From positions 108-64,107 of the forward strand of contig JAUVKT010000003.1 in NCBI GenBank assembly GCA_030596125.1: 64,000 nt of DNA. The letters run 5' to 3'. A program made the position numbers and the translations under genes. Numbering within the stretch: position 1 is the first letter of the stretch; each line of letters opens with the position of its first letter. This DNA comes from Bacteroidales bacterium (GTDB lineage: Bacteria; Bacteroidota; Bacteroidia; Bacteroidales; VadinHA17). The notes under the pieces are model-generated. The model did no database searches, was not told the origin of the DNA, and worked only from the letters and a program-made list of their open reading frames with translations. Of this stretch, positions 31,404-52,078 are shown piece after piece.

Positions 31404-31415
31404 AACCAGTATTTT

Positions 31416-31874
31416 ATGAACCAACTGAACTCATCATTCACTGAAACTCTGAACAACCATTTGGTTGAAGAAGGCAGCCTGATACCACTTCTGCAAAAAG
31501 CTCAGGAACAGGATGGATACATCTCACCGGAAAAAGTCGCACAAATTTCAGAGTATCTGAAAATGACCGAAAGCCAGGTCTATGGTGTAGCCTCTTTTTA
31601 TTCTCAGTTCCGGTTTACTCCACCAGGCGAACATTCAATAAGTGTTTGTCTTGGAACAGCATGCCATGTAAACGGAGGCGAAACCTTGCTTAATACCATA
31701 GGAAGAGATCTGGATGTAAGACCGGGAGAATCAACTTCTGACAAGAAGTTTGATCTGAAAAGGGTTGCCTGTCTGGGATGCTGTGCCCTGGCTCCGGTTG
31801 TAAAGATCGATGATGATATTTACAGCAAGGTGAATGTCGTTAAACTTAAAGAGATTATAAGCAATTATGAGTAA
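31416..31874 (+). CDS. NuoE/HydC-like [2Fe-2S] subunit
   Basis: 152 aa with CLGTACHV...CLGCCALAP, the thioredoxin-like ferredoxin motif. Confidence 0.85.
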   Translation: MNQLNSSFTETLNNHLVEEGSLIPLLQKAQEQDGYISPEKVAQISEYLKMTESQVYGVASFYSQFRFTPPGEHSISVCLGTACHVNGGETLLNTIGRDLDVRPGESTSDKKFDLKRVACLGCCALAPVVKIDDDIYSKVNVVKLKEIISNYE

Positions 31875-36891: not shown

Positions 36892-36892
36892 A

Positions 36893-38296
36893 ATGGCAGG
36901 AAAGAAAAAACTCAACCTAAACAGGGTGGATATGCCCAAGCAGGCAGATTTCATCCGTAAACGTAATTTTAAAGAGGTCGCCCTTGGATACAGTGCTGAA
37001 GATGCAATTGAGGAGGCGGGCAGGTGTCTTGACTGTAAAAAACCTTTTTGTGTTGATGGATGCCCGGTTGAAATAGATATCCCGGGTTTTATCAGAGCAA
37101 TAGCAGAAGAGGATTTTGCCCTTGCAATAAAAATATTAAAAGAAAAGAATTGTCTTCCAGCAGTCTGCGGGAGGGTTTGTCCCCAGGAAGAGCAATGTGA
37201 AATAAAATGTATTCTTGAAAAGAAAGGTGCTCCGATAGCCATTGGACGTCTCGAACGGTTTGCTGCAGAGTGGGAATCACAACAGGACAGTATTGAAATG
37301 CCTGTGATTGATGATAAAACAGGCAAAAAAGTTGCTGTTATTGGTTCTGGACCTGCCGGGATAACTGTGGCAGGGGATCTGATATTACAGGGACATGATG
37401 TAACAATGTATGAAGCCCTTCATGAGCCCGGTGGTGTACTTACTTATGGGATACCTGAATTCCGTTTACCGGCAAGTGTGGTTACACGGGAAATAGAATA
37501 CCTGCAAAAATTGGGGGTCAAACTTATATGCAATTTTGTTGTAGGTAAAACAAGATCATTAAAGAAGATACTTGATGAGTACGATGCAGTTTTTGTTGGC
37601 ACCGGAGCCGGACTCCCATGGTTTATGAATATACCGGGAGAAAACTTGAATGGAGTATATTCTGCCAATGAGTATCTGACACGTGTTAACCTTATGCGTG
37701 GTTTTCAGTATCCAAAAACCTATACCCCCGTTGTAAGACATAAAAAAGTGGCTGTAGTTGGCGGTGGTAATGTGGCAATGGATTGCGCCAGAACGGCTCT
37801 CAGGCTTGGTGCAGAAGAGGCTGTAATTGTTTATCGCAGATCAGAGACCGAACTTCCTGCTCGTGAAGAGGAGTACGAGAATGCTGATGAGGAAGGAGTT
37901 AAATTCAGTTTCTTAACACTGCCTGAAAAACTTTACGGGGATAAAAATGGTTGGCTTAAAGAGATAGAATGTTCAAAGATGGAACTGGGTGAACCTGACG
38001 CATCAGGAAGACGGAGACCAATAAGAATTGATGGTTCAGAATTCAGGATGAAGATGGATGCCTGTATTGTTGCCATTGGAAACAGTCCAAACCCGATTAT
38101 CCCTCAGACTACCCCTGAACTTGCGGTATCAAAATGGGGAACTATTGAGGTGGATGAGGAGTCCTTTAAGACGACTATCGATAGGGTATGGGCAGGTGGT
38201 GATATTGTATCGGGAGCTGCAACTGTGATCCTGGCTATGGGAGCTGGCCGGAAAGCTGCACGGTCTATGCATGAATATCTTAGCAGCCTGACTTAA
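36893..38296 (+). CDS. NfnB-like subunit (GltD/SudA family NADPH-dependent oxidoreductase)
   Basis: CLDCKKPFCVDGCP, CGRVCPQEEQCE, IGSGPAGITVAG and VVGGGNVAMDCA. Start trimmed to MAGKKK, 2 nt after the nfnA-like stop. Confidence 0.8.
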   Translation: MAGKKKLNLNRVDMPKQADFIRKRNFKEVALGYSAEDAIEEAGRCLDCKKPFCVDGCPVEIDIPGFIRAIAEEDFALAIKILKEKNCLPAVCGRVCPQEEQCEIKCILEKKGAPIAIGRLERFAAEWESQQDSIEMPVIDDKTGKKVAVIGSGPAGITVAGDLILQGHDVTMYEALHEPGGVLTYGIPEFRLPASVVTREIEYLQKLGVKLICNFVVGKTRSLKKILDEYDAVFVGTGAGLPWFMNIPGENLNGVYSANEYLTRVNLMRGFQYPKTYTPVVRHKKVAVVGGGNVAMDCARTALRLGAEEAVIVYRRSETELPAREEEYENADEEGVKFSFLTLPEKLYGDKNGWLKEIECSKMELGEPDASGRRRPIRIDGSEFRMKMDACIVAIGNSPNPIIPQTTPELAVSKWGTIEVDEESFKTTIDRVWAGGDIVSGAATVILAMGAGRKAARSMHEYLSSLT

Positions 38297-38550: not shown

Positions 38551-39108
38551 TCAGTCTTGAAACCAATTCACCTCGACACACTCCCTTAGTTGCAACTTTG
38601 CCCTGTGAATTATCTGCCAGTAATTAGTAGGGGCAAGTTCGAGTTCCTGACAAATATCTTCACCCTTCTTATTCATCAGGTATTTCAATTTTACGCACAT
38701 GATCCACTGTTCGGGCAGGGCATCAAGGCACTCTTTTAATATCTTCTGAAACTCGTCATCATCAAGAAGATTCTTCTCTTCATGGTGCCAATCAGCAGGC
38801 TTTTTGCTATGATACCATGTCCCGTTTACATCAAAGAAGTTTGAAAGCGTTTGATCATCCTTTTCAACAGGGTTGTTAACCTTTTTTCTATAAACATCAA
38901 TGATCTTATAGTTAAGTATTGATATGAGCCACGTTTTAGGAGAGCTGTCTCCTTTGAAAGAAGTCAGCTTCTCGGCTGCGGCCAGAAATGTATCTTGCAC
39001 AAGATCTTTTGCAAGTTCAGGGTCAGTAACTTTATGGATTGCCCACGAATAGAGGTCATTTGTATATTTCCCAACCCATTCGCCGAGATTATGCTTTTTT
39101 TCAGTCAT
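38551..39108 (-). CDS. ECF-type RNA polymerase sigma-70 family factor
   Basis: 185 aa with region 2 (DLVQDTFL) and region 4 (LPEQWIMCVKLKY...CQELELAPTNYWQIIHRAKLQLRE). Confidence 0.8.
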   Translation of the reverse strand: MTEKKHNLGEWVGKYTNDLYSWAIHKVTDPELAKDLVQDTFLAAAEKLTSFKGDSSPKTWLISILNYKIIDVYRKKVNNPVEKDDQTLSNFFDVNGTWYHSKKPADWHHEEKNLLDDDEFQKILKECLDALPEQWIMCVKLKYLMNKKGEDICQELELAPTNYWQIIHRAKLQLRECVEVNWFQD

Positions 39109-40510: not shown

Positions 40511-40626
40511 AGCAAATATGTCAAAGGTCAGATGTCAAATGTCAAATGTGAAGAGCAAATATGTCAAAGGTCAGATGTCAAATGTCAAATGTGAAGAGTA
40601 AATATGTCAAATGTAGAATGTTGAGA
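40511..40626. repeat. Heptamer-based tandem array (ATGTCAA family), 43 bp super-unit x about 2.6
   Basis: The super-unit gcaaatatgtcaaaggtcagatgtcaaatgtcaaatgtgaaga recurs at 40512, 40555 and 40598. Confidence 0.9.
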
Positions 40627-40648: not shown

Positions 40649-41011
40649 ATGAAAAAACTAATAACAGAGAGATTTTTAGAGTTTGCAGCCATAATTGTTA
40701 AAATTGGAAAAAAACTTAACAAAACTTTTGAAGGCAGACATGTTTATGGTCAACTGTTTCGTTCCGGCACCTCTTCAGGTGCTAATTATGAAGAATCACA
40801 TTCTGCACAAAGTCCTCGGGATTTTATTCATAAAAGAGAAGTTGCATTAAAAGAACTTCGTGAATCTTTATTCTGGTTACGATTAATTGAGAAAGTAAAG
40901 TTTATACCTGAAAAAGACCCGGATTTAGTTTTTCTGTTAAAAGAAAATCAGGAGTTAATTAATATTATCGCAAAAGCAATTTCAACAATGAAGAAAAAAA
41001 ATAACATTTGA
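40649..41011 (+). CDS. Four-helix-bundle protein (23S rRNA intervening-sequence protein / Avd-like family)
   Basis: 120 aa. QLFRSGTSSGANYEESHSAQSPRDFIHKREVALKELRESLFWLRLI matches the family signature. Confidence 0.75.
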   Translation: MKKLITERFLEFAAIIVKIGKKLNKTFEGRHVYGQLFRSGTSSGANYEESHSAQSPRDFIHKREVALKELRESLFWLRLIEKVKFIPEKDPDLVFLLKENQELINIIAKAISTMKKKNNI

Positions 41012-41175
41012 CCTTTAACATTTGCCATCATACATTTGCCATTTGACATCATACATTTGCCATTTGCCATTTGCCATCATACATTTGACCTTTGACTTTT
41101 GACATCATACATTTGCCATTTGACCTTTGACATCATACATTTGCCATTTGCCATTTGACATCATACATTTGCCAT
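41005..41175. repeat. Heptamer tandem array (CATTTGC/CATTTGA/CCTTTGA/CATCATA), inverted relative to 40511-40626
   Basis: About 24 consecutive heptamers, read directly. The array starts inside the last codons of the four-helix-bundle ORF and ends 6 nt before the response regulator ATG. Confidence 0.9.
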
Positions 41176-41807: not shown

Positions 41808-41827
41808 GTACTACCTGATTCGACCAC

Positions 41828-41896
41828 AACCTGTAAACCTGTAACCTGTAACCTGCAACTTGCAACTTGCAACTTGCAACTTGCAACTTGCAACTT
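41828..41896. repeat. Heptamer tandem array (CCTGTAA x3 then CTTGCAA x6)
   Basis: Read directly: aacctgtaaacctgtaacctgtaacctgcaacttgcaacttgcaacttgcaacttgcaacttgcaac. Confidence 0.9.
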
Positions 41897-42056: not shown

Positions 42057-43991
42057 ATGAAACAGATGAAAAAACTAGTTAATATTTTAATGATTGAAGA
42101 TTTTCAGGATGATGCAGAACTGATAAGCTTTGAACTTGACAGGGGAAAAATTGATCATAAGATCACCAGGATCTGGGAAATTGATAAACTGGAAGATGAG
42201 CTTCAAAAACTGGTTTGGGACCTGGTCCTTTGTGACTATTACCTTCCGGGATTTAACGGGGCTGATGCGATAAGAATTATTCGGAAAAAAAGGCCCGATT
42301 TACCAATCATCCTTGTATCTGGAATGGTAGGGGACGAAAAGGCCGTTGAAGTTATGAAACTGGGAGCCAGGGATTATATTCTTAAAGACAATCTAAATCG
42401 TCTGATCCCTGCTGTTAAAAGAGAAGTTTATGATTTTAAACTACGGCAAACTCACTTAAATACAGAGAAAGCACTTGAGATACAGACTTCCCTTTCCCAG
42501 GTTTTCATTGATCATATTCCTGCCAGTGCCAGGCTTGTTGAGAAGAAAACTTATAGGGTATTATCAGCAAACAATTATGCACTGAAACATGGCACTATTC
42601 CGGGAAAGAAGTGCTATGAGTACAATCCTGGACAGAAAGAGCCATGCCCCAATTGTAAACTACATGATTTAGGAGAGGGGAACCGACACATTAATGCTGA
42701 GTCAAAAGAAAATGGAGATACCTATGATGAACATTGGGTAAATATAGATGAAAACCTGGCCCTTCATTACACCTTTAATATTACTGAAAGGAAACAATCT
42801 GAAAAAGAACTCATACAGGCGAAAGAGGAGGCAGAGGAGTCTGATCGCCTGAAATCAGCATTTCTTTCAAATATGTCACATGAGATCAGAACTCCAATGA
42901 ATGCTATTATTGGGTTTACCCAGATACTGAAAGATAATACGATAACAGATGATGAGCGGAATTCTTATATTGAGATTATTGAGCAGAGCGGAAACAACAT
43001 GCTGAATCTTCTTACAGATATTATAGAGTTTTCGCGTTTAGAGTCCGGAGACTATAAATTGAATAATGAAGAATTCCAGGTTGAAAAGTATATTGAGGAC
43101 CTGTTTGACCGGTTTAATAATGAATTGAAATTGAAAAACGAAAAGGATCTGCAACTCAGTCTTTCAAAACCTGAAGGCGATCAAATGGTTGTACTGAATC
43201 AGGATAAGAGTTGCCTTACCCAGATTTTGAACAGCCTGTTTCAAAACGCAAAGAAATTCACAAACCGGGGATCTATTGAGATTGGTTTCGAACTAATTGA
43301 AAAAGAGATTCGTTTTTATGTTAAGGACACCGGAATTGGTATTGAAAAGGAAAAACAGGAGATAATTTTTCAGCGATTCCGTCAGGTTGAAGAAGAAAAA
43401 ACAAGAACTTATAGTGGGGCAGGCCTTGGCCTGGCAATATCAAATAATATATTAGAGATCATGGGGAGTAAAATCTGGGTAGAATCTGAGTATGGAACCG
43501 GATCAACATTCTATTTTACACTTCCGGTTTACCGGATTGATAAAACTTCACATCCGGAGCATGCTGAATCTTCCGGAGAAGATCATGGTCAGGATACCCC
43601 TTTAATGTTAACCGGTAAAATAATCCTGATTGTTGAAGACGAAATTACAAATTACCTGGTTTTGGAAAATTTCCTGCAGAAATATAACCCCGAAATTCTT
43701 TGGGCCAAAAATGGTGAAACTGCCATAGATATTGTACATAGCAGGAAAGATATAGATCTGATTCTGATGGATATCCGGCTTCCTGGCATTGATGGAATGC
43801 AGGCCACCCGGACTATTCGCCAATTCAATACTAATATTCCTATAATTGCCCAGACAGCTTATGCATTACAGGAAGATATTGACAGAGCTTTCGAGTCTGG
43901 GTGTGATGATTTGATTACAAAGCCAATCAACTTTGAATTATTGATTGAAAAGATGCAAGTTTTTCTTTGCGTCTCTGCGTCTTTGCGGTAA
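42057..43991 (+). CDS. Hybrid sensor histidine kinase (REC, Cys-containing sensor region, HisKA, HATPase, REC)
   Basis: The N-terminal receiver is paralogous to that of 39461-40510. H-box SHEIRTPMNAIIGF, then GAGLGLAI and a C-terminal receiver (LIVEDE, LMDIRLPG). The last 9 codons lie in an octamer repeat. Confidence 0.8.
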   Translation: MKQMKKLVNILMIEDFQDDAELISFELDRGKIDHKITRIWEIDKLEDELQKLVWDLVLCDYYLPGFNGADAIRIIRKKRPDLPIILVSGMVGDEKAVEVMKLGARDYILKDNLNRLIPAVKREVYDFKLRQTHLNTEKALEIQTSLSQVFIDHIPASARLVEKKTYRVLSANNYALKHGTIPGKKCYEYNPGQKEPCPNCKLHDLGEGNRHINAESKENGDTYDEHWVNIDENLALHYTFNITERKQSEKELIQAKEEAEESDRLKSAFLSNMSHEIRTPMNAIIGFTQILKDNTITDDERNSYIEIIEQSGNNMLNLLTDIIEFSRLESGDYKLNNEEFQVEKYIEDLFDRFNNELKLKNEKDLQLSLSKPEGDQMVVLNQDKSCLTQILNSLFQNAKKFTNRGSIEIGFELIEKEIRFYVKDTGIGIEKEKQEIIFQRFRQVEEEKTRTYSGAGLGLAISNNILEIMGSKIWVESEYGTGSTFYFTLPVYRIDKTSHPEHAESSGEDHGQDTPLMLTGKIILIVEDEITNYLVLENFLQKYNPEILWAKNGETAIDIVHSRKDIDLILMDIRLPGIDGMQATRTIRQFNTNIPIIAQTAYALQEDIDRAFESGCDDLITKPINFELLIEKMQVFLCVSASLR

Positions 43992-44005: not shown

Positions 44006-44683
44006 ATGAAAAATGCAGCAAAAACCAGGGAACAGCTTTTACACGAGTTAGAGAAATCAAATAATAGAATTGCTGAACTGGAAAAATCTGAAACCGGGCG
44101 CAAGCAGATGGAGAAAACGCTACAGGAAAGCGAACAAAGATTCCGAAAACTTTTAGAGAATGTGCCTACAGTTGCAGTGCAGGGATACAATTCCGATGGA
44201 GATATTCATTATTGGAATAAAGCAAATGAATCTATATATGGTTATACGGCAGATGAAGCTATCGGGAAAAATCTCATTGATCTGATCATTCCACCTGAAA
44301 TGAAGGAAGATGTGAAGAAAATAATCAGGAACGGTGCAAAAATTGGGGAAATGCCACCTGCTGCTGAAATAACCTTAATGCGCAAAGATGGAAAACCGGT
44401 CACTGTATTCACGAGTCATGCAATAGTACAACAATCCGGGAAAGAACCGGAATTGTTTTGTATTGATGTGGATTTGACCGAGCGCAAACAGGCGGAAGAA
44501 GAACTTGCACAATACCGTGAGCATCTTGAAGAACTTGTACTGGAACGAACTTCAGAACTGGAAGATAGAAATAAAAAACTTGAAAAATTCAATAAACTTT
44601 TTGTAGACAGGGAATTCAGGATTAAAGAGCTTAGGGACAGGGTTAAGGAACTGGAGAAAGCAGTAGGCAGTCCCGGAAAATAG
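44006..44683 (+). CDS. Stand-alone PAS sensor with conserved coiled-coil N- and C-caps (array member A)
   Basis: N-cap KTREQLLHELEKSNNRIAELEK, one PAS domain and C-cap ERKQAEEELAQYREHLEELVLERTSELEDRNKKLEKFNKLFVDREFRIKELRD. No output domain seen. Confidence 0.7.
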   Translation: MKNAAKTREQLLHELEKSNNRIAELEKSETGRKQMEKTLQESEQRFRKLLENVPTVAVQGYNSDGDIHYWNKANESIYGYTADEAIGKNLIDLIIPPEMKEDVKKIIRNGAKIGEMPPAAEITLMRKDGKPVTVFTSHAIVQQSGKEPELFCIDVDLTERKQAEEELAQYREHLEELVLERTSELEDRNKKLEKFNKLFVDREFRIKELRDRVKELEKAVGSPGK

Positions 44684-44753
44684 AAATCTCCGATTTCATA
44701 TTTTTCCGAGGATCCTCGAAAATTAATGCAAATCACAGATTTGCTAATTTTCG

Positions 44754-44796
44754 GGATAGGCAGTAGGCAGTAGGATAGGCATAAGCGATAAGCGCT
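44754..44796. repeat. Heptamer patch (GGCAGTA / GATAAGC units)
   Basis: Read directly: gataggcagtaggcagtaggataggcataagcgataagcgc. Confidence 0.8.
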
Positions 44797-44830
44797 TGAT
44801 TATAACATGAAAAGTATTGTTAGAAAAATA

Positions 44831-44937
44831 CATTTGCCATTTGCCATTTGCCATTTGACTTCATACATTTGACTTTTGACATCATACATTTGACATAAAA
44901 TTTGACCTTTGCCATTTGACATCATACATTTGACATA
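44831..44937. repeat. Heptamer tandem array (CATTTGC/CATTTGA/CATCATA family), third locus
   Basis: Same unit family and orientation as 41005-41175. Confidence 0.9.
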
Positions 44938-44957
44938 AAGAGCCTAAAGTTATTATA

Positions 44958-46370
44958 ATGGAAAACAGAGATAAAACCAAAACCAGGGAACAGCTTTTAA
45001 ACGATACAGTTCTTTTAAATGCTAAAATAGCCAGGCTGGAAAAAGATAAAGAGATATTTCAGGTAATTGCAGAAAACACAAGTGATAATATTGCAATTAC
45101 AAGTTTTGATCTGAAAGCTGAATATCTTTATGTTAGTCCTTCTGTAAAACATGTTCTTGACTATGATCCAAAGGATCTGGTTGGTAAATCATTTTTTGAT
45201 TTTATTCATCCTGATGATAAGAAAGTTCTGTTTCCATTATTAAAAAAGTATGTTAATCATAAAATAAAAAAGCTCCTATCCGGGAAAAATATTCCGGTTA
45301 GTAAAACAGTTGATTTTCGCTTTAGAAAGAAAAACGGAGACTGGTGTTTTATGCAAAGTGCTATAAATATAGTGGGAAATCAATTTATTTCAGTTACGAG
45401 AGACATCACCGAGCGTAAACGAGCGGAGAAAGCACTGAAGGAAAGTGAGAAACAGTTGCAAACTTTGATTGATGCTATGCCGGATTTTGTTTGTTTTAAG
45501 GATGGAGATGGATGCTGGCTCAAGGCTAATAATGCCTGCATCCGGATTTTCCAACTTGAGGATATAGACTATCGGGGAAAAACTGACTCTGAACTAGCTG
45601 AACTCAATAGCAATCTTCGGGGTACATTCCTTACGTGCAAAGAAACCGATACAAGAGCCTGGGAAGGGGAGGGTGTTTTTCACGGAGAAGAGACGGTTCC
45701 TGATCCAGATGGTTCAGTCCGGATTTACGATATGACCAAATTGGCTGTTCTTCAACCGGATGGTGAGCGTATTGGTCTTGTTGTTCTGGGACATGACATC
45801 ACCGAACGCAAACAGGCGGAGGAGATGCTGCAGGAAAGCGAGGATAGATTAAGACAAATTATTGATATTGTGCCACATATGATCTTCGCAAAAGACAGGA
45901 ACGGGCGTTTCATTATTGCAAATAAAGCCGTAGCTGACGGATGTGGAATAACTCCGGAAAAAATGGTTGGAAAGACACATCCGGAATTATTGGGAGCTAC
46001 TCCTGAACAATATGAGTCTTACCTGACAGATGACCGTGAAGTTATAGATAGTGGAAAATTGAAATTTATTCCCGAAGAAAATTATACTTTTCCTGATGGT
46101 CATAAGGTAATTATGGAAACAACCAAAATCCCGTTTACTTCCGCAGGAATACCTACTGTTCTGGGCGTATCAATCGATATCACCGACCGCAAACAGGCTG
46201 CAGAAGAACTTGCAAAACACCGTGAGAACCTGGAAGAACTTGTTCAGGAACGAACAAAAGAACTGGAAGATAAAAACATAAAACTTGAAAAATTCAATAA
46301 GCTTTTCGTTGACAGGGAATTCAGGATTAAGGAGCTTAGGGATAAGTTGAAGAAACTGGAGGGAAAGTAA
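44958..46370 (+). CDS. Stand-alone multi-PAS sensor with conserved caps (array member B)
   Basis: N-cap MENRDKTKTREQLL, three PAS-type segments each ending in DITERK, then the C-cap. No output domain. Confidence 0.7.
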   Translation: MENRDKTKTREQLLNDTVLLNAKIARLEKDKEIFQVIAENTSDNIAITSFDLKAEYLYVSPSVKHVLDYDPKDLVGKSFFDFIHPDDKKVLFPLLKKYVNHKIKKLLSGKNIPVSKTVDFRFRKKNGDWCFMQSAINIVGNQFISVTRDITERKRAEKALKESEKQLQTLIDAMPDFVCFKDGDGCWLKANNACIRIFQLEDIDYRGKTDSELAELNSNLRGTFLTCKETDTRAWEGEGVFHGEETVPDPDGSVRIYDMTKLAVLQPDGERIGLVVLGHDITERKQAEEMLQESEDRLRQIIDIVPHMIFAKDRNGRFIIANKAVADGCGITPEKMVGKTHPELLGATPEQYESYLTDDREVIDSGKLKFIPEENYTFPDGHKVIMETTKIPFTSAGIPTVLGVSIDITDRKQAAEELAKHRENLEELVQERTKELEDKNIKLEKFNKLFVDREFRIKELRDKLKKLEGK

Positions 46371-46424
46371 GAAGAAGTATGTAGTAGTAGGAAAGGCAAA
46401 AGGCATAGGGCGTAGGGGAAAAGG
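46371..46424. repeat. Degenerate heptamer patch after the C-cap
   Basis: Read directly: gaagaagtatgtagtagtaggaaaggcaaaaggcatagggcgtagggg. Confidence 0.7.
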
Positions 46425-46456
46425 AAGTGTCCCGGGTAAAATAGATAGATTAAAAA

Positions 46457-47107
46457 ATGATGGAAAACAGAGACAAGACCAAAACCAGGGAACAGCTCTT
46501 AAAAGAGTTGGAGAAAGCAGACAAAAGAATTGTCGAACTGGAAAAATTCAAAACCGAACGGCTGTTTACTGAACAGGCAGGCAAGCAGGTAGAGGAGGAA
46601 ATCCGAAAATTATCTAAAGTGGTGGAGACTACTTCGGAAGCAGTTGTGATAACAGATATGCAGGGAATGATAGAATATGTAAACCAGGGACTTCTTACGC
46701 TTGGCAGTTATGAAGATGATAGCTTAATAATTGGGAAATCGGTCTTTATGTTCAGCACTGCAGAAGGCGAAAATCAATTAAAAGAAAAAATTATTCCAAC
46801 AATATTGGCTAAAGGAAAATGGAGAGGAGAGGTTCCTGTTAAACGAAAAGATGGTTCTATCTTTCCTGCGGAGATGATTTGTTCGCATATATTGGATGAA
46901 GAAGGTAAACCAAAATCTTTATTATCTCAATATCAAGATATCACAAAGAGAAAGAAAGCAGAAGAAGAACTCCGGGAAAAAATGAATGAACTTGAAGCTT
47001 TTTATCGTGCTACTCTGGGTCGGGAGGGTCGTGTTATTGAGCTAAAACAAGAGGTAGATGGGTTGTTGGAACAACTTGGTGAAAATAAGAAATATACAAA
47101 TATTTAA
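46457..47107 (+). CDS. Stand-alone PAS sensor with N-cap and diverged C-cap (array member C)
   Basis: MENRDKTKTREQLLKELEKADKRIVELEK, one PAS domain and the tail ELEAFYRATLGREGRVIELKQEVDGLL. Confidence 0.7.
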   Translation: MMENRDKTKTREQLLKELEKADKRIVELEKFKTERLFTEQAGKQVEEEIRKLSKVVETTSEAVVITDMQGMIEYVNQGLLTLGSYEDDSLIIGKSVFMFSTAEGENQLKEKIIPTILAKGKWRGEVPVKRKDGSIFPAEMICSHILDEEGKPKSLLSQYQDITKRKKAEEELREKMNELEAFYRATLGREGRVIELKQEVDGLLEQLGENKKYTNI

Positions 47108-47120
47108 TAGAGGGGAGATC

Positions 47121-48242
47121 ATGTTTCAAAAAATAGAATTTTTTGATGGGCAGAAGCCGGAAGGATGGCAACCATTTCTGAAGGAGTTGAGTAAAGACAA
47201 TGCTAAAGGCATTCTCCTTTTTGTTGGGGAAGAGACACCGTTTGATTACAAACAGCTGCAACCTCTGCTAAAAAAGATGGATATTAAAGTAATTGGAGCC
47301 GTTTTCCCTGAAGTGATCTATAACGGTTCGTTATATAAACAGGGAGTAGTGGGTTGCGCTTTCCGGTCCCCGGTATTTTTTGAAGTGATTAAAGATCTGA
47401 GCAAATTTAAAGCCAGTTTTTCAGAAGATTTTATTTCAGAAAATACCCGCACACTTATGATCTTTACTGATGCATATACAGATAATATTCCGCTGTTTAT
47501 CGAAACTTTATATGAAAAGAATTTAAAAGAAACAGCGTTTATCGGAGGTGTTGCAGGCAGTATAAAAAGTATTAATCAACTATCTTTGTTTACTTGCGAT
47601 GACTTATTCGCAGGAGGGGCTATCATCGCTGCTGTTGAGGACTATATGTCGGTGGGAATAAATCATGGTTTGCAACCTGTTTCTGAACCGGCTATTGCCA
47701 GTAGTGTGGATAGAAATATATTAAAATCAATTAATTGGGAACCGTCTTTTGATTATTATAAAAGGATCGTTGAGAAAGATGATGGTATCAGGTTAACAAC
47801 AGATAGTTTACTTGAAGTTGCTAAATCGTATCCTCTTGGAATGCTGAAATATGATGGTGAGATCATTTTGCGTGTTCCTGTAAGTGTTGGCGAAGAAAGA
47901 AGTCTTTTATTTGCCAGTGAAATACCTGAAAACTCTGTATTGGTGGTTACAAAAGCCTACCATGACAAATTAATAGTAGCCGCAGGTATAGCCACAGACC
48001 AGGCTAGAATTGCTTTTGAGAGCAAAAAGAATATATCCCCTGGCAAAGTTTTAATCGTAGACTGTCTTGCCAGAGCAATGTTTTTAGAAGACAGATTGAA
48101 TGATGAGTTAAAGATAATTGCAGACAAAGCAGGAGGTGACGTTTTAACATTTGGATTTTTAAGTTTAGGAGAAATTGCTTCTACCGGGGATAAATATATT
48201 GAACTGTACAATAAGACCATAGTTGTTGGTATGGGGGAATAA
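47121..48242 (+). CDS. FIST-domain sensory protein (FIST_N plus FIST_C)
   Basis: 374 aa. The C-terminus FGFLSLGEIASTGDKYIELYNKTIVVG is typical of FIST_C. Start trimmed to MFQKIEFF, 13 nt after the preceding stop. Confidence 0.65.
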   Translation: MFQKIEFFDGQKPEGWQPFLKELSKDNAKGILLFVGEETPFDYKQLQPLLKKMDIKVIGAVFPEVIYNGSLYKQGVVGCAFRSPVFFEVIKDLSKFKASFSEDFISENTRTLMIFTDAYTDNIPLFIETLYEKNLKETAFIGGVAGSIKSINQLSLFTCDDLFAGGAIIAAVEDYMSVGINHGLQPVSEPAIASSVDRNILKSINWEPSFDYYKRIVEKDDGIRLTTDSLLEVAKSYPLGMLKYDGEIILRVPVSVGEERSLLFASEIPENSVLVVTKAYHDKLIVAAGIATDQARIAFESKKNISPGKVLIVDCLARAMFLEDRLNDELKIIADKAGGDVLTFGFLSLGEIASTGDKYIELYNKTIVVGMGE

Positions 48243-48281
48243 ATTATAAACCGGACTGACCATTAAAAAAATATATTGAAC

Positions 48282-49493
48282 ATGAAACAAATGAGATCTT
48301 CTCTTCAGAACCTCAGTATTTCTTACGAGATTGCGCTTGCAATTGGTAACAGTTTGAACCTGTCAGAAATGCTTCATGATGTTATTCACAAGATGGTGCA
48401 TAAAACGAATGCCTATCATGGAATTATCTGGGTCAACAATGGAGAGAAACTCCAACCGGTAGCAAGTGCGGGAATTAATATAAAAGATGTGCAGGCACAA
48501 GGTGAAAGAATTGGTTGCCGGGATGTTTTCAATCAAATAATAAAAAGAGAGCAATTTGTACTTAGATGCAAAGATGACAAAGATTTTTTGCAGTACTGTA
48601 CTGTCCTGTCAGAAAAAGAAGAATCAGTATTGATTGTGCCTGTAGCCAATGTGGCGATTATTTATCTGGTCTATTCCCGCAGGGATATCGCAGATAAACC
48701 TTTAGCAAATATGATTACCGGTCTTTCTAAGAAGTTAGGCATTGCTATAGAAGCTTGTATGGATCATAAGAACATTATTAATGAAGTGCAGGTGAGAGTG
48801 AAAGCAGAAAAGGAACTAACGAAGAAAACAGAGCAACTGATTTCCGGAGAGAAGGAACTTCAAAGGCTTTATGGAGAATCTGAACAAGCCAGAAAATCAC
48901 TGCTTAGCATCCTGGAAGATGTTGAGCAAAAAGAGGAGGCTCTGCGGGAAAAAGAGATCTATACCAGGGCGATTATTGAACAGTCTCCAATCAGTATCCA
49001 GATTTTCAATAAGAATGGTTTAACTATAGATACAAACAGTGCCTGGGGAGAATTGTGGCAGCTTCCATCTGACGAATTGATCGGGAAATATAATGTTCTC
49101 GAGGATGAATATGCACGGGAGATTGGGGCGTTAGATAATATTGAGAAAGCCTTTAAAGGCGAGACTTCTTTTCCATTCGAGATAGAATACGATCCTGTAA
49201 AAAGTAGAAATCCTGGTCGAAAGCGATATATAAAATGTGTTGTTTTTCCTATAAAAAATAAAAATGGAGAAATGAACAGAGTCGTATTAATGCATGAAGA
49301 TATCACCGAACGTAAACAGGCTGCAGAAGAACTTGCAAAACACCGTGAGAACCTGGAAGAACTTGTGCAGGAACGAACAAAAGAACTGGAAGATAAAAAC
49401 AAGAAACTTGAAAAATTTAATAAGCTTTTCGTTGACAGGGAGTTCAGGATTAAGGAGCTTAGGGATAAGCTGAAGGAGGTGGAGGGAAAGTAA
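48282..49493 (+). CDS. GAF-like plus PAS sensor with conserved C-cap, no N-cap (array member E)
   Basis: N-terminal GAF-like region, coiled coil with SLLSILEDVEQKEEAL, one PAS domain, then a C-cap nearly identical to that of member B. Confidence 0.7.
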   Translation: MKQMRSSLQNLSISYEIALAIGNSLNLSEMLHDVIHKMVHKTNAYHGIIWVNNGEKLQPVASAGINIKDVQAQGERIGCRDVFNQIIKREQFVLRCKDDKDFLQYCTVLSEKEESVLIVPVANVAIIYLVYSRRDIADKPLANMITGLSKKLGIAIEACMDHKNIINEVQVRVKAEKELTKKTEQLISGEKELQRLYGESEQARKSLLSILEDVEQKEEALREKEIYTRAIIEQSPISIQIFNKNGLTIDTNSAWGELWQLPSDELIGKYNVLEDEYAREIGALDNIEKAFKGETSFPFEIEYDPVKSRNPGRKRYIKCVVFPIKNKNGEMNRVVLMHEDITERKQAAEELAKHRENLEELVQERTKELEDKNKKLEKFNKLFVDREFRIKELRDKLKEVEGK

Positions 49494-49537
49494 GAGGAAG
49501 TATGTAGTATGTAGTATGTAGTATGTAGTAGGAAGCC
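49494..49537. repeat. Heptamer tandem array (AGTATGT x4)
   Basis: Read directly: gaggaagtatgtagtatgtagtatgtagtatgtagtaggaagcc. Confidence 0.9.
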
Positions 49538-49570
49538 AAATGTCCGGGTAAATAGTTAGACTAAAAAAAG

Positions 49571-52078
49571 ATGGAAAACAGAGACAAGACCAAAACCAGG
49601 GAACAGCTCTTAAAAGAGTTAGAGAAAGCAAATAAAAGAGTTGCTGAACTGGAAAAATTTGAAAACGAGAGTAAGCAAGCGGAGGTGGCGTTGAAGGAGA
49701 GCGAGGAGAAATACAGAACTCTCGTCGAGTATTCCTCTGATTTAATCTTTCAAATTGATAATAATGGGATTGTTTTATCAGTAAACCAGGCCGCGGCTGG
49801 AGTCCTGGGTAGAAAACCTAAGGAGATATCGGGGAAAAATATTTCTGAATTATTTCCAGAGGAAATTAACAAGAGCTATAAGCGGGACTTGAAGAAAGTT
49901 TTTGAAACAGGTGAAGAATCAATCAAAGAAGGGACCATACCTGTCGGAGAACATACAATGTGGATCAGTACATCCCTTAATCCAAAAAGAGACAGTGCCG
50001 GTAAAATAATGTGGGTATTTGGCGTAAGCAGGGACATCACTGAACGCAAGCGGGCAGAGGAAGCTTTAGAAGAAAGTAATGAAAATTTTCGACAGGTTGT
50101 GTCTAGTATTACAACTATTATTTGGAAAGCCGAGGTTGGAAAGAACGGAGCTTTTGAAAACACTTATATTTCACCCGTTGTAGATGAATTGCTGGAATTA
50201 CCACCAGGAACAATAAAAAATGACTGGGAAATATTTTTCAGCTATATAAAACCCGAATATCTGGAACAGGTAAATAATGCTTTCAGAGAAGCAATTAAAT
50301 CGCCGGGTAAAGTAATTAATTGCGAATACGAAGTATTAAAAGAAAATGGACGAACAGCCTGGTTTCATTCAAAAGGCAGAATTTTTAGAAAAAATGAGAA
50401 ATTGTATGTTTTCGGCTCTACGAATGATATCACCGAGCGAAAAGTAGCAGAGGTGGCGCTTCAGGAAAGTGAGAAAAAATATAGAGACCTGTTTGAAAAA
50501 TCAGAAGATGCTTCTTTAGTAATTCATAATGGGAAATTTATTGATTGTAATCAGGCTACAATTAATATGCTGGGTTATAATAGTAAAGATGAGCTTTTAA
50601 TGATGCACCCTTCAGAATTGTCACCGGAAAAACAGGCGGACGGAAAATTATCATTTACGAAAGCAAATGAAATGATGAAAATAGCTTTTAGAAATGGCAG
50701 TCATCGCTTCGAATGGATTCATAAGAGATTTAATGGAGATGGTTTCCCTGTGGAGGTGTTGTTAACCGCTATTTCTACTGATGAAGAAAATCAGATTATT
50801 CACGCGGTTCTGCGGGATATCACTAAACGCAATCAGACTGAGGAATTGCTTCAGAAAAGCGAAGAAAAATATAGATTATTAGCAGATAATTCAATGGATG
50901 CGATCTGGCAGATGGATAAGAAATTAGTCTTTACATATATTAGTCCGTCCGTAAATAATATTTTGGGATACACAGTTGATGAGTGGGTTGGAACCAGATT
51001 ATCTCAACATACCAGTACAAAAGAATTTTTTAAAATGTCAAGAAAAGCATTATACGCAATTAAAAATTTTAAGAAATTTAAACACCTCACCTTTGAAGCT
51101 GTGATGTTAAAAAAAGATGGAAATGAAGTTCCTATTGAAATCACCGGAAGATTGTTATTGAATAAGAAAGGGTTGCCAATTGGATTACAGGGAACTACCC
51201 GTGATATTACTGAACGCAAGAAGGCTGATAAGGAACTTAAAAAGCACCGTCAACATCTGGAAGAAACTGTAAAACAGAGAACAGGAGAGATTGAAAACAA
51301 ATCAAAAAAACTGGAAGAATCACAAAACGCACTAACTTTTTTGCTTGAGGATGTGAATGATGCAAGATTTGAACTTGAGAAAACAAATCTTCAGTTGCAA
51401 ATAGCCAATAAGGAGATGGAGTCTTTTACATACTCCGTATCCCATGACCTGAGAGCTCCTCTCAGAGCCATCCTGGGTTTTTCAAATAAATTTACAGAGA
51501 TCTATGGAGGAAAAGTGGACGAAGAGGGAACACGCCTGTTAAATGTGATAAATGCGAACACAAAAAAAATGGGTATGCTTATTGATGATCTGCTTGCTTT
51601 TTCAAGGATGGGAAGATCTGATATGCGCAAGGTAAAAGTTGACATCAAAGGATTAGCACATGAAACCTGGAACGAGCAGAAAGATCAGTATGCAGGCAGA
51701 AATATTAAACTGACTATCAAGGATATGCCTGTTGCAAAAGGTGACCGGAATATGCTCAGGCAGGTCCTGTTCAACCTGCTGTATAATGCAGCAAAATTTT
51801 CAAAATACAAGGAAGTATCAATAATTGAAGTGGGAGCCAAAACTAGAGATTCGGAAACCATTTATTATGTAAAAGATAATGGAGCAGGCTTTGATATGAG
51901 ATATAAGGATAAGTTATTCCAGGTATTTCAGCGTTTGCATAGCGACCGTGAGTTTGAGGGAACCGGTGTTGGACTGGCCATTGTAAAGAAAGTTATTGAT
52001 ATGCACGGCGGAAAGGTCCGGGCAGAATCAGAACCTGACAAAGAGACAACTATTTACTTCTCGCTTCCTATAGCCTGA
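49571..52078 (+). CDS. Multi-PAS sensor histidine kinase with the same N-cap (array member F)
   Basis: N-cap MENRDKTKTREQLLKELEKANKRVAELEK, four to five PAS segments, signalling helix (HRQHLEETVKQRTGEIE...LTFLLEDVNDA), H-box SHDLRAPLRAILGF and HATPase (GTGVGLAIVKK). Confidence 0.85.
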   Translation: MENRDKTKTREQLLKELEKANKRVAELEKFENESKQAEVALKESEEKYRTLVEYSSDLIFQIDNNGIVLSVNQAAAGVLGRKPKEISGKNISELFPEEINKSYKRDLKKVFETGEESIKEGTIPVGEHTMWISTSLNPKRDSAGKIMWVFGVSRDITERKRAEEALEESNENFRQVVSSITTIIWKAEVGKNGAFENTYISPVVDELLELPPGTIKNDWEIFFSYIKPEYLEQVNNAFREAIKSPGKVINCEYEVLKENGRTAWFHSKGRIFRKNEKLYVFGSTNDITERKVAEVALQESEKKYRDLFEKSEDASLVIHNGKFIDCNQATINMLGYNSKDELLMMHPSELSPEKQADGKLSFTKANEMMKIAFRNGSHRFEWIHKRFNGDGFPVEVLLTAISTDEENQIIHAVLRDITKRNQTEELLQKSEEKYRLLADNSMDAIWQMDKKLVFTYISPSVNNILGYTVDEWVGTRLSQHTSTKEFFKMSRKALYAIKNFKKFKHLTFEAVMLKKDGNEVPIEITGRLLLNKKGLPIGLQGTTRDITERKKADKELKKHRQHLEETVKQRTGEIENKSKKLEESQNALTFLLEDVNDARFELEKTNLQLQIANKEMESFTYSVSHDLRAPLRAILGFSNKFTEIYGGKVDEEGTRLLNVINANTKKMGMLIDDLLAFSRMGRSDMRKVKVDIKGLAHETWNEQKDQYAGRNIKLTIKDMPVAKGDRNMLRQVLFNLLYNAAKFSKYKEVSIIEVGAKTRDSETIYYVKDNGAGFDMRYKDKLFQVFQRLHSDREFEGTGVGLAIVKKVIDMHGGKVRAESEPDKETTIYFSLPIA

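What the first reader, a model, noticed from the sequence alone, without database searches (positions are those of the whole stretch)
44006..52078. Array of PAS sensor genes with dissimilar sensor cores between constant coiled-coil caps; only the last gene has an output domain
Five same-strand genes are interrupted only by a FIST gene: 44006-44683, 44958-46370, 46457-47107, 48282-49493 and 49571-52078.
- Four of the five begin with almost the same N-cap, M(E)NRDKTKTREQLLKELEK..(R/K)(I/V)AELEK.
- Three end with a near-identical C-cap, ITERKQA(A/E)EELA(K/Q)(H/Y)RE(N/H)LEELV..ERT.ELED.N.KLEKFNKLFVDREFRIKELRD. A fourth has a diverged version, LEAFYRATLGREGRVIELKQEV.
- The PAS/GAF cores between the caps look unrelated to each other.
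- Only the last gene continues into HisKA plus HATPase. The other four have no kinase, cyclase, phosphodiesterase or DNA-binding module that I can see.

This looks like a cassette system of interchangeable sensor modules with constant dimerisation ends. They could dock onto the terminal kinase, which carries the same N-cap, or onto each other.
Basis: partly seen in the sequence, partly recalled or inferred. Interest (0 to 1): 0.8.

Follow-up and report, generated by a model that had tools for sequence, protein, structure and literature searches.

The report
Output-less PAS sensors feeding one kinase
Four sensor proteins with no enzyme or DNA-binding part all end in the same strictly conserved helical tail and sit just upstream of a particular type of histidine kinase; this arrangement recurs in many anaerobic bacteria and probably lets several separate sensors control one kinase.

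Summary
Five same-strand genes (44006-52078), interrupted only by a FIST gene, share an N-terminal helix (four of five) and a C-terminal cap. Three caps are 82-94% identical in DNA; the fourth is a distinct subtype. Only the last gene has HisKA+HATPase.

The caps are not local oddities or kinase wreckage. The C-cap is a classic S-helix (ERT signature) joined in unbroken heptad register to an unannotated ~30-residue tail (FNxLFVGREFRIKELRDKVKELE). In 357 distinct proteins from about ten phyla the stop codon follows the tail within 2-37 residues, and the tail is never internal. It follows only input domains (PAS, REC, GAF, PocR, periplasmic sensors).

Tail genes form same-strand tandem arrays in 20 of 75 genome loci. 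They lie directly upstream of one kinase subtype, HK*, which carries SQxALxxLLEDVNE exactly 34 residues before the phospho-His. The window's kinase is an HK*. Starting from HK*, 21 of 29 loci have a tail gene immediately upstream.

The best reading is that these are trans-acting sensor modules whose tail couples them to the HK* coiled-coil stalk. That coupling is inferred, not shown. The shared N-cap is not the general docking element. This is an undescribed variant of accessory-sensor control of kinases.

The parts
42057..43991 (+). Hybrid histidine kinase (REC - unassigned middle - HisKA - HATPase_c - REC, 644 aa), 14 nt upstream of g1. It is a full-length homologue of the ~650-aa hybrid kinases found at the downstream end of the same operon type elsewhere.
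   Evidence: Pfam. blastp gives 36-37% identity over the whole length to L004_8, L088_2, L091_4, L093_7, L010_4 and L074_6.
44006..44683 (+). g1: N-cap helix + one PAS + type-A C-cap (225 aa). The C-cap is 44471-44683: S-helix ERT at 44543-44560, tail FNKLFVDREFRIKELRD at 44588-44638.
   Evidence: AlphaFold2 (pLDDT 95.5) gives helix 2-51, PAS 56-156 and one unbroken helix 158-219.
44830..44936 (+). Period-7 tandem array (ACATTTG, about 15 copies) in the 274-nt g1-g2 spacer, ending 22 nt before the g2 start. The same array lies upstream of the LuxR-type regulator gene (41004-41175). It may be a shared regulatory region; its function is unknown.
   Evidence: (20 matches against 0.06 expected).
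44958..46370 (+). g2: N-cap + three PAS + type-A C-cap (470 aa). The C-cap is 46176-46370, with the tail at 46293-46343.
46457..47107 (+). g3: N-cap + one PAS + type-B tail (216 aa). The tail FYRATLGREGRVIELKQEV..LGENKKY is at 47000-47107. It has no ERT S-helix.
   Evidence: Type-B tails in other loci are always C-terminal; close tail orthologues are in L004_4 and L086_0.
47121..48242 (+). Stand-alone FIST sensor protein (FIST_N + FIST_C; 373 aa from the ATG at 47121, or 394 aa from 47058). It has no cap.
   Evidence: Pfam; alternative start. FIST genes also lie next to tail genes in L006 and L041.
48282..49493 (+). g4: unassigned (weakly GAF-like) N-terminal 215 aa + one PAS + type-A C-cap (403 aa), with no N-cap. 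The C-cap is 49299-49493, with the tail at 49416-49466.
   Evidence: P0057 is a homologue of the N-terminal region.
49571..52078 (+). g5: N-cap + four PAS + S-helix (ERT at 51275-51292) + invariant pre-DHp segment SQNALTFLLEDVN (51320-51358) + H-box SHDLRAP (51440-51460) + HATPase_c. It is the HK*-type kinase.
   Evidence: AlphaFold2 on a single sequence predicts one continuous ~100-residue helix from the PAS end through His625 (moderate confidence).
46176..46549 (+). Junction repeat copy 1: g2 C-cap + spacer + g3 N-cap.
   Evidence: Against copy 2: C-cap 94.4%, spacer 65.6%, N-cap 92.2%, flanks 45-50%.
49299..49660 (+). Junction repeat copy 2: g4 C-cap + spacer (with an AGTATGT x4.6 microsatellite) + g5 N-cap.

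Best explanation
**What the genes are.** g1, g2, g4 (type A) and g3 (type B) belong to a widespread, unannotated family of effector-less sensors. Their only 'output' is a conserved C-terminal coiled-coil module.
- In type A the module is a canonical S-helix (HLEELVKERTxELE) continued, without a heptad break, by the tail FNxLFVGREFRIKELRDKVKELE.
- The stop codon comes about 12-14 residues after the tail.
- Each sensor is most likely a parallel dimer: N-terminal helix, PAS core, then a 60-residue C-terminal helix.

**What they probably do.**
- The sensors act in trans on the co-transcribed HK*-type kinase, g5 in this window.
- A signal sensed in a PAS core (or, in relatives, by a phosphorylated REC domain) is passed down the S-helix to the tail.
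- The tail contacts the kinase's long coiled-coil stalk. The best candidate site is the invariant SQxALxxLLEDVNE segment, which sits a fixed 34 residues before the phospho-accepting His. This contact would raise or lower autophosphorylation.
- Several different sensors can thus converge on one kinase.

**Shown versus inferred.**
- Shown: family membership, strictly terminal position, input-only architectures, heptad continuity, tandem arrays, and reciprocal synteny with HK*.
- Inferred: the physical contact, its site, and its sign.
For: 1. **Terminal module.** A profile search of 1.84 billion representatives gave 4809 hits at E<=1e-10. About 135 of the top 150 carry the whole cap at the extreme C-terminus of proteins of 100-1500 aa. 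The tail motif is never internal in 357 distinct proteins.
2. **Input-only architectures.** Of 93 complete representatives, 91 have PAS, 12 REC, 7 GAF, 3 PocR and 2 SBP_bac_3. MEDS, 4HB_MCP and CHASE8 also occur. No catalytic or DNA-binding family is among the 25 commonest. REC + tail proteins of about 230 aa also exist.
3. **Strong constraint, including exposed positions.**
   - 301 of 353 tails have the ERT Arg exactly 21 residues before the tail Arg.
   - N24, L26, F27 and K35 are 93-98% conserved, and F32 91%.
   - Hydrophobic residues occupy the non-core g, b and f positions.
4. **Synteny from the tail side.**
   - 75 genome loci from Bacteroidota, Cloacimonadota, Spirochaetota, Delongbacteria, Marinimicrobia, Chlorobiota, Acidobacteriota, Desulfobacterota and Calditrichota were examined.
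   - 20 of them have same-strand tandem tail genes.
   - All 26 HK* genes in these loci lie within two genes downstream of a tail-gene run, against 10 of 59 other kinases.
   - Gaps are often -14 to +30 nt.
5. **Synteny from the kinase side.** Of 29 HK*-anchored metagenome loci, 21 have a tail gene directly upstream and 25 within three genes.
6. **HK* is a rigid module.** LLED-to-His is 34 residues in 56 of 57. ERT-to-SQ is 7, 14 or 21 residues. Extra hydrophobics sit at the c, e and g positions.
7. **Shared helix.** Sensor and kinase share the PAS end + S-helix (52 columns, 52% identity, hhalign probability 99%) and diverge exactly where the tail begins.
8. **Structure predictions.** The g1 cap is a single 62-residue helix, and the g5 stalk is a single ~100-residue helix.
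Against: - No interaction was tested, and no multimer model could be run.
- About a third of tail genes in genome loci have no kinase nearby. They must act in trans at a distance or on something else.
- The S-helix-to-SQ spacing in HK* varies by whole heptads. A simple in-register sensor:kinase heterodimer therefore does not fit all pairs.
- Mutual information between tail position 29 and linker positions 14-17 exceeds all shuffles, but it tracks one clade and is not matched by the window's own pair.
- Shared ancestry of the sensor and kinase S-helices could explain part of the adjacency.
- The window lacks the small Rcp1-like REC that follows HK* in 21 of 24 other loci.
Confidence: 0.5

Rival explanations
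1. Autonomous sensors with no dedicated partner. The tail would be only a strong dimerisation or termination clamp that replaces the missing DHp domain. The proteins would act through their PAS domains (ligand buffering, PAS-PAS contacts) or not at all. Adjacency to the kinase would reflect origin by tandem duplication of the kinase's sensor half plus co-regulation.
For: - The sensor and kinase share a homologous PAS end + S-helix.
- The heptad runs on unbroken and the tail is rich in i/i+4 salt-bridge pairs.
- Many tail genes are orphans.
- Short LOV proteins show that effector-less PAS dimers with coiled-coil ends are common (PMC4589677; structural matches).
Against: - A mere clamp does not need near-invariant residues at exposed e, f, g and b positions across about ten phyla.
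- The adjacency is specific to one kinase subtype and is kept in distant phyla, often with overlapping or near-overlapping genes.
- REC + tail proteins make sense only if the tail transmits something.
Confidence: 0.2
2. The tail docks on a different conserved partner, not HK*. Candidates are the Rcp1-like single-domain receiver, the ~650-aa hybrid kinase (REC-x-HisKA-HATPase-REC) of the same operons, or an unlinked protein.
For: - HK* is followed by a small REC in 21 of 24 loci, and often by a ~650-aa hybrid kinase.
- The window keeps the hybrid kinase (42057-43991) right before g1.
- REC domains are known to bind an S-helix region in RsbK (PMC4574943).
Against: - The window has no Rcp1-like REC.
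- Several loci have tail gene + HK* without the hybrid kinase.
- HK* is the only neighbour common to nearly all loci.
Confidence: 0.15
3. A DNA-level cassette system. The repeated [C-cap - spacer - N-cap] junctions would serve mainly as recombination substrates that shuffle, duplicate or delete sensor cores, and the conserved protein ends would be a by-product.
For: - The junction repeats are 92-94% identical with sharp edges, and lie 3.1 kb apart in direct orientation.
- Tandem arrays of 2-3 tail genes with different cores are common.
Against: - The tail is conserved at the protein level between phyla, where DNA identity is lost.
- g1 differs from g4 by 16 synonymous and 11 non-synonymous codon changes in the cap, so it is old and under constraint.
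- Recombination can explain local homogenisation (g2/g4) but not the family.
Confidence: 0.1
4. The short genes are decayed or truncated histidine kinases, with the C-cap being the stump of a DHp domain.
For: - The cap begins with the same S-helix that precedes DHp in g5.
- By eye, NKELERFNKLFVGREFR resembles NKELEAFSYSVSHDLR.
- One related locus (L001) really is fragmented.
Against: - hhalign finds no alignment of the tail to the H-box or DHp region.
- The stop position is conserved in 357 distinct proteins.
- The spacers are only 86-274 nt, which leaves no kinase remnant.
- No H-box occurs in 136 family members.
- The tail is under strong purifying selection.
Confidence: 0.03

Closest known systems
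Signaling helix (S-helix) of Anantharaman, Balaji and Aravind 2006 (PMC1592074)
   Same: The first half of the type-A cap is a textbook S-helix. It is a heptad coiled coil with the ERT signature, with Arg at a d position, placed right after a PAS domain.
   Different: The S-helix is described as almost always lying between two signalling domains. Here it ends the protein, followed only by a conserved 30-residue tail that puts a second Arg at a d position exactly three heptads later.
Short LOV / short PAS proteins (PpSB1-LOV, PpSB2-LOV, W619_1, PF5-LOV)
   Same: A PAS core flanked by an N-terminal A'alpha helix and a C-terminal Jalpha coiled coil, with no fused effector (PMC4589677). They appear among the structural matches to the g1 model.
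   Different: - There is no LOV flavin-cysteine motif.
- The C-terminal helix is about three times longer.
- It carries the ERT S-helix plus an invariant tail.
- The genes lie in arrays next to a specific kinase.
Methyl-accepting chemoreceptors controlling CheA
   Same: The logic is the same: many sensors with different input domains, no enzymatic output, and a conserved coiled-coil end, converging on one kinase. Some related loci also carry a CheR-type methyltransferase.
   Different: - There is no MCPsignal domain.
- The coil is a parallel helix rather than a hairpin.
- The kinase is a classical HisKA kinase, not CheA.
- No CheW is present.
- This is a resemblance in logic only.
RetS-GacS and other multikinase or accessory-protein control of histidine kinases
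   Same: One signalling protein modulates another kinase by direct helix-helix contact. RetS replaces the GacS homodimer interface (PMC8498467).
   Different: RetS is itself a full kinase and binds through its DHp domain. The proteins here have no DHp or CA domain, and the proposed contact is upstream of DHp.
RsbK-RsbM-RsbY module of Bacillus cereus
   Same: In related loci a CheR-like methyltransferase and an RsbK-like hybrid kinase (sensor-HAMP/GAF-HisKA-HATPase-REC) precede a REC protein. RsbM methylates the S-helix of RsbK (PMC4574943).
   Different: The REC protein's output is PAS + tail instead of a PP2C phosphatase. This module is absent from the window itself.

Membership tests
S-helix (PMC1592074) | Heptad coiled coil of about 40 residues with a conserved ERT signature at the c, d, e positions | tested here: met
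   g1, g2, g4 and g5 carry LEELV.ERT.EL. 301 of 353 family tails have ERT in register, and the a/d positions are hydrophobic throughout. g3 (type B) lacks it.
S-helix (PMC1592074) | Lies between two signalling domains | tested here: not met
   In g1, g2 and g4 and in 357 relatives, nothing but a ~30-residue tail and 2-37 further residues follow. It is met in g5.
Histidine kinase (HisKA + HATPase_c) | H-box-containing DHp domain and a GHKL ATPase domain | tested here: not met
   g1-g4 have no HisKA or HATPase hit. No H-box occurs in 136 family members. hhalign does not align the tail to DHp. g5 meets both features.
Decayed kinase / pseudogene | Disrupted reading frame with kinase-coding remnants downstream, and no conservation of the truncated end | tested here: not met
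   The spacers are 86-274 nt. The stop position and tail are conserved across phyla.
Type-A tail family (defined here) | ERT Arg, 21 residues, then F-N-x-L-F-V-[GDN]-R-E-F-R-I-K-E-L-[RK], with the stop codon within about 40 residues | tested here: met
   g1, g2 and g4.
Type-B tail family (defined here) | PAS end, a short linker without ERT, then [GDN]RE..[MVI][IV]ELK.E[VI][ND].LL...G...KY and the stop codon | tested here: met
   g3 ends in GREGRVIELKQEVDGLLEQLGENKKYTNI. There are 14 cases in the fetched loci and 760 database hits, and all that were inspected are terminal.
HK* kinase subtype (defined here) | SQxALxxLLEDVN segment 34 residues before the phospho-His, an H-box of the type FSYSVSHDLRAPLR, and an S-helix a whole number of heptads upstream | tested here: met
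   g5 has SQNALTFLLEDVN at aa 584-596 and His625. ERT-to-SQ is 14 residues.
Short LOV photoreceptors | Flavin-binding LOV core with the GxNCRFLQ cysteine motif | tested here: not met
   No NCRFL-like motif occurs in g1-g5.
Short LOV photoreceptors | PAS core with N- and C-terminal helices and no effector | tested here: met
   AlphaFold2 model of g1 and Foldseek matches to PpSB2-LOV, PF5-LOV and W619_1.
Methyl-accepting chemotaxis proteins | MCPsignal domain (an antiparallel hairpin with a conserved tip) | tested here: not met
   No Pfam MCPsignal hit, and the cap is a single unbroken helix.
FIST sensor proteins | FIST_N and FIST_C domains | tested here: met
   The 47058-48242 product matches PF08495 at 7.6e-16 and PF10442 at 1.7e-21.

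The most novel reading that the evidence does not exclude
The tail is the kinase-control tip of a chemoreceptor-like signalling layer for classical two-component kinases.
- Arrays of soluble and membrane sensors, including phosphorylatable REC-tail proteins, would dock through their conserved coiled-coil ends on the stalk of one HK* dimer.
- They would sum their signals there.
- In some lineages CheR-type methylation of the glutamate-rich S-helix would provide adaptation.

This would be a new, modular many-sensors-to-one-kinase architecture with a portable ~60-residue coupling module.
Probability: 0.25. Interest if true: 0.85.

Novelty: new variant of a known kind. Interest (0 to 1): 0.66.

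Why it matters
Effector-less PAS proteins are common in genomes and are usually left as 'PAS domain S-box protein' with no idea of how they signal.

This work yields four concrete things:
- A short sequence signature, not modelled in Pfam or NCBIfam, that marks thousands of such proteins.
- A specific candidate partner, the HK* kinases with the SQxALxxLLEDVNE stalk.
- A conserved operon grammar: tail genes, then HK*, then a small REC, then a hybrid kinase.
- Response regulators whose only output is this tail.

If the tail does couple sensors to the kinase in trans, three things follow:
- It would explain how bacteria add or swap inputs to a kinase without rebuilding it.
- It would extend the role of the S-helix from an intramolecular link to an intermolecular one.
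- It would offer a compact part for engineering multi-input kinases.

The prediction can be tested with purified proteins from this locus, or in a cultured carrier such as Ancylomarina sp. (locus L074).

Tried and rejected
1. **Tail as a degenerate DHp helix 1 with His replaced by Arg.** It looked plausible by eye. hhalign aligned only the PAS end + S-helix and gave no alignment of the tail to the H-box. Rejected as unsupported.
2. **Known family for the caps.** Pfam, NCBIfam and PDB sequence searches gave only chance coiled-coil hits: SAS-6, TBK1 and the natriuretic peptide receptor S-helix at E 0.003-1.
3. **N-cap as the docking partner of the C-cap.** An N-cap occurs in only about 7% of genes after a tail gene.
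4. **In-register sensor:kinase heterodimer.** It is weakened because the ERT-to-SQ spacing in HK* is 7, 14 or 21 residues.
5. **Covariation between tail and kinase stalk.** There is a signal, but it is confounded by one clade.
6. **The first short-query homologue search.** It returned only 14 short fragments. The database index favours short proteins for short queries, so positions were taken from the exhaustive profile search instead.
7. **Exact look-up of the g5 product in public assemblies.** Nothing was found.
8. **Literature search for the motif strings and for effector-less PAS kinase partners.** No description of this family was found.
9. **Heme or LOV cofactor guesses for g1.** The structural neighbours are FixL and DosP at about 25% identity, there is no LOV motif, and no cofactor can be assigned.

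Full report
**1. What is in the window**

Six same-strand ORFs fill 44006-52078.

| Gene | Coordinates | Size | Domains (Pfam) |
|---|---|---|---|
| g1 | 44006-44683 | 225 aa | 1 PAS |
| g2 | 44958-46370 | 470 aa | 3 PAS |
| g3 | 46457-47107 | 216 aa | 1 PAS |
| FIST gene | 47058 or 47121-48242 | 394 or 373 aa | FIST_N + FIST_C |
| g4 | 48282-49493 | 403 aa | unassigned 215-aa N-terminus + 1 PAS |
| g5 | 49571-52078 | 835 aa | 4 PAS + HisKA + HATPase_c |

- Spacers between the genes are 274, 86, 13, 39 and 77 nt.
- The N-cap (M(E)NRDKTKTREQLLKELEK..R(I/V)AELEK) is present in g1, g2, g3 and g5. It forms a 66-nt repeat at 73-91% identity.
- The C-cap is a 211-nt direct repeat in g1, g2 and g4.
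- g2 and g4 are 94.4% identical across the cap-coding part. Their downstream spacers are 65.6% identical, and the N-caps of the following genes (g3, g5) are 92.2% identical. The PAS-coding DNA on either side falls to 45-50%. The repeated unit is therefore the junction [C-cap - spacer - N-cap], with sharp edges.
- The PAS cores are only 23-37% identical to each other. They are distant paralogues, not unrelated folds.
- The caps occur nowhere else in the 64 kb.

**2. What the caps are**

- Neither cap matches any Pfam or NCBIfam model. A profile of the C-cap finds only chance coiled coils among PDB sequences.
- AlphaFold2 on g1 with 56 homologues (pLDDT 95.5) gives an N-terminal helix (2-51), a PAS core (56-156) and one unbroken C-terminal helix (158-219).
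- The first half of the C-cap, HLEELV.ERT.ELE.KN, is the S-helix of Anantharaman et al. Its ERT signature has Arg at a heptad d position (PMC1592074).
- Counting heptads across 353 distinct family tails, the a/d pattern runs on without a break into the tail F-N-x-L-F-V-[GDN]-R-E-F-R-I-K-E-L-[RK]-D-K-V-K-E-L-E.
- In 301 of the 353 tails, the ERT Arg lies exactly 21 residues (three heptads) before the tail Arg, which also falls on a d position.
- Positions my search pattern did not fix are nearly invariant: N24 98%, L26 93%, F27 98%, F32 91%, K35 96%.
- Hydrophobic residues occupy the g, b and f positions as well as a and d. That is more surface than a two-stranded coil needs.

**3. The cap is a family-wide C-terminal module, not kinase wreckage**

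- A profile of the cap was searched against 1.84 billion representative proteins. It gave 41,986 hits at E<=0.001 and 4,809 at E<=1e-10.
- About 135 of the best 150 carry the full cap at the very end of proteins of 100-1500 aa.
- In 357 distinct proteins the tail motif is followed by 2-37 residues (mode 12-14) and is never internal.
- None of 136 members has an H-box.
- Pfam on 93 complete representatives finds only input modules. These are PAS (91), Response_reg (12), GAF (7), PocR (3), SBP_bac_3 (2), and MEDS, TPR, 4HB_MCP and CHASE8 (one each). No catalytic or DNA-binding family is among the 25 commonest.
- REC + tail proteins of about 230 aa with nothing else also exist. In domain-architecture terms, the tail therefore sits where an output domain would sit.
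- The window's spacers leave no room for a lost DHp+CA.
- hhalign aligns sensor and kinase only through the PAS end and S-helix (52 columns, 52% identity, probability 99%). It does not align the tail with the H-box.

**4. g3 belongs to a second tail subtype**

- g3 ends in ...LEAFYRATLGREGRVIELKQEVDGLLEQLGENKKYTNI, with no ERT S-helix.
- The same pattern ([GDN]RE..MIELK.EVN.LL...G...KY) occurs 14 times in the loci I fetched, always 10-22 residues from the stop. It often sits in the same arrays as type-A genes.
- A profile search returned 760 hits. The 96 listed proteins that match the type-B motif pattern end 11-32 residues after it, typically ...KYRIVE.
- Types A and B share the core [GDN]-R-E-x-x-x-x-E-L-K.

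**5. Distribution and gene neighbourhood**

*Distribution.* One strict peptide pattern found 427 confirmed copies in one-genome-per-species contigs. The best 75 loci come from these groups:
- Bacteroidales: Prolixibacteraceae, Marinilabiliales-like, Lentimicrobiaceae
- Cloacimonadota, Delongbacteria, Spirochaetota, Neomarinimicrobiota, Chlorobiota
- Victivallaceae, Aminicenantes, Acidobacteriota, Desulfobacterota and Calditrichota

Nearly all are MAGs. One is a cultured Ancylomarina sp.

*From the tail side.* I called ORFs myself and tagged REC, kinase and FIST domains with phmmer.
- 20 of 75 loci have two or three tail genes in same-strand tandem.
- REC + tail fusions are frequent.
- The gene after a tail-gene run is very often a histidine kinase of one subtype, which I call HK*.

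*The HK* signature.* HK* has an S-helix, then SQxALxxLLEDVNExRxEL...NKELEAFSYSVSHDLRAPLR. The window's g5 (ESQNALTFLLEDVNDARFELEKTN...MESFTYSVSHDLRAPL) is one.
- The first Leu of LLED is 34 residues before the His in 56 of 57 HK*.
- The ERT Arg is 7, 14 or 21 residues before the Ser of SQ.
- Conserved hydrophobics sit at the c, e and g positions.
- A single-sequence AlphaFold2 run on g5 aa 545-721 predicts one continuous ~100-residue helix through this region and His625 (moderate confidence).

*Specificity.* All 26 HK* genes in the 75 loci lie within two genes downstream of a tail-gene run. Only 10 of 59 other kinases do.

*From the kinase side.* I sampled loci by the HK* motif alone in metagenome contigs.
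- Of 29 with a visible upstream gene, 21 have a tail gene directly upstream and 25 within three genes. Run lengths are 1 (13 loci), 2 (5) and 3 (3).
- HK* is followed by a small REC in 21 of 24. That REC is Rcp1-like (…LGLYWLLLNE).
- A ~650-aa hybrid kinase often comes next.

*The window's version.* The hybrid kinase at 42057-43991 is a full-length homologue (36-37% identity) of those ~650-aa hybrids. The window therefore has the same parts in a different order, but no Rcp1-like REC. FIST genes also sit beside tail genes in L006 and L041.

**6. Mechanism**

What is shown:
- an input-only family with a strictly terminal, strongly constrained coiled-coil module;
- tandem arrays of such genes;
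- reciprocal, subtype-specific and cross-phylum adjacency to HK*, often with overlapping or near-overlapping genes;
- a shared S-helix, with divergence exactly at the tail.

What I infer (confidence about 0.5):
- The sensors are parallel dimers.
- Their tails contact the HK* stalk, most plausibly the invariant SQ/LLEDVNE segment next to DHp.
- That contact tunes autophosphorylation, so several sensors feed one kinase.
- REC + tail proteins would then be response regulators that pass a signal from one kinase to the next.

Weak points:
- About a third of tail genes have no kinase nearby.
- A strict in-register heterodimer does not fit the variable ERT-to-SQ spacing.
- The covariation I found is confounded by phylogeny.
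- No multimer prediction or experiment was possible.
- The N-cap cannot be the general docking site. It occurs in about 7% of genes after a tail gene, against about 1% of unrelated neighbours. Most partner HK* begin with membrane or periplasmic sensors.

**7. Rivals**

| Rival | Main evidence for | Main evidence against | Confidence |
|---|---|---|---|
| Tail is only a dimer clamp and synteny reflects ancestry | Shared S-helix; orphan genes; the short LOV precedent | Conserved exposed residues; REC + tail proteins; subtype-specific synteny | 0.2 |
| Partner is the small REC or the hybrid kinase | Operon grammar; REC binds the S-helix region in RsbK (PMC4574943) | The window lacks the REC, and some loci lack the hybrid kinase | 0.15 |
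| Junction repeats act mainly as recombination cassettes | 92-94% identical direct repeats | Protein-level conservation across phyla | 0.1; complementary rather than exclusive |
| Decayed kinases | Cap begins with the S-helix that precedes DHp; one related locus (L001) is truly fragmented | Section 3 above | 0.03 |

**8. Comparison with known systems**

- The cap contains a true S-helix, but it breaks the rule that an S-helix lies between two domains (PMC1592074).
- The overall shape is that of short LOV proteins (PMC4589677). The differences are no LOV motif, a three-fold longer helix and an invariant tail.
- The logic resembles chemoreceptor arrays on CheA, and RetS acting on GacS by helix-helix contact (PMC8498467). 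The defining domains of those systems are absent, however.
- No paper in the searchable library contains the motif strings or describes the family.
- Public annotations call these proteins only 'PAS domain S-box protein'.

**9. Verdict**

- The finding is real.
The ends are constant, the cores vary, and the link to the kinase is well supported.
- The constant ends are members of two widespread terminal-tail families.
- The likely docking target is the kinase's stalk, not its N-cap.
- I rate it a new variant of a known kind (accessory sensors that control a histidine kinase), with interest 0.66.

Noticed in passing
window 40518-40614 (- strand sense), 41004-41175, 44830-44936; also 41827-41896 and 49499-49530: Every intergenic spacer of this two-component cluster holds a period-7 tandem array.
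- ACATTTG occurs about 22 times just before the LuxR-type regulator gene (ATG at 41181) and about 15 times before g2.
- Its reverse complement lies before the 23S_rRNA_IVP gene.
- AACCTGT/AACTTGC occurs about 11 times after the regulator gene.
- AGTATGT occurs 4.6 times between g4 and g5.

The unit contains TACATTTG, which fits the Bacteroidetes -7 box TAnnTTTG (from my own knowledge). The arrays could be shared regulator-binding sites or slippage-prone promoter spacers. This is unexplained.
   Followed up: partly
window 44930-44959: A perfect sigma-70 consensus (TTGACA, 18 nt, TATAAT; 12 of 12) whose -10 box overlaps the g2 start codon. It may be chance or a leaderless start. It is probably irrelevant if the host is a Bacteroidota member.
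   Followed up: no
window 44694-44744: Two hairpins lie just after the g1 stop: the palindrome CCGAGGATCCTCGAAAA and GCAAATCACAGATTTGC followed by TAATTTT. This suggests g1 may be transcribed with the upstream hybrid kinase and terminated there, with g2-g5 forming a separate unit.
   Followed up: no
window 29311-38296: Upstream gene set typical of an electron-bifurcating hydrogenase or formate-dehydrogenase complex:
- DRTGG + HATPase regulator
- [FeFe]-hydrogenase-like protein with a C-terminal Fe-S motif
- NuoF-like subunit
- NuoG/molybdopterin subunit
- GltD-like subunit

An ECF sigma factor follows on the opposite strand (38551-39108). This points to an anaerobic host.
   Followed up: partly
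window 40649-41011: A 23S rRNA-intervening-sequence protein (four-helix bundle) gene sits inside the two-component cluster, flanked on both sides by the heptamer arrays.
   Followed up: no
L131 5134-10675; L133 4184-11065: In related loci a CheR-type methyltransferase and an RsbK-like hybrid kinase (4HB_MCP or dCache-HAMP, GAF, HisKA, HATPase, REC) directly precede a REC + tail gene. RsbM methylates the S-helix of RsbK in Bacillus cereus, so the glutamate-rich S-helix of this family might be methylated too.
   Followed up: partly
L001 4289-8177 (Spirochaetia MAG): This is a truly decayed version of the cluster.
- The kinase is split into HisKA and HATPase pieces.
- A REC-PAS gene stops in mid S-helix.
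- A 58-aa ORF holds only the tail, after a truncated SBP-TM-PAS gene.

It shows what real decay of these genes looks like, in contrast to the window.
   Followed up: yes
L011 gene 7 (888-aa kinase): An HK* with two tandem copies of the SQxSLxxLL(E/K)DVNE stalk segment before the H-box.
   Followed up: no
window 42057-43991, residues about 130-260: The hybrid kinase has an unassigned middle region with a Cys-rich stretch (KKCYEYNPGQKEPCPNCKLHD) between its first REC and HisKA. This could be a metal- or redox-sensing insert. The region is conserved in length in the ~650-aa homologues.
   Followed up: no
protein P0349: A type-B tail fragment is annotated as coming from a Heimdallarchaeaceae MAG. 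If this is not contamination, the tail family reaches into Archaea.
   Followed up: no
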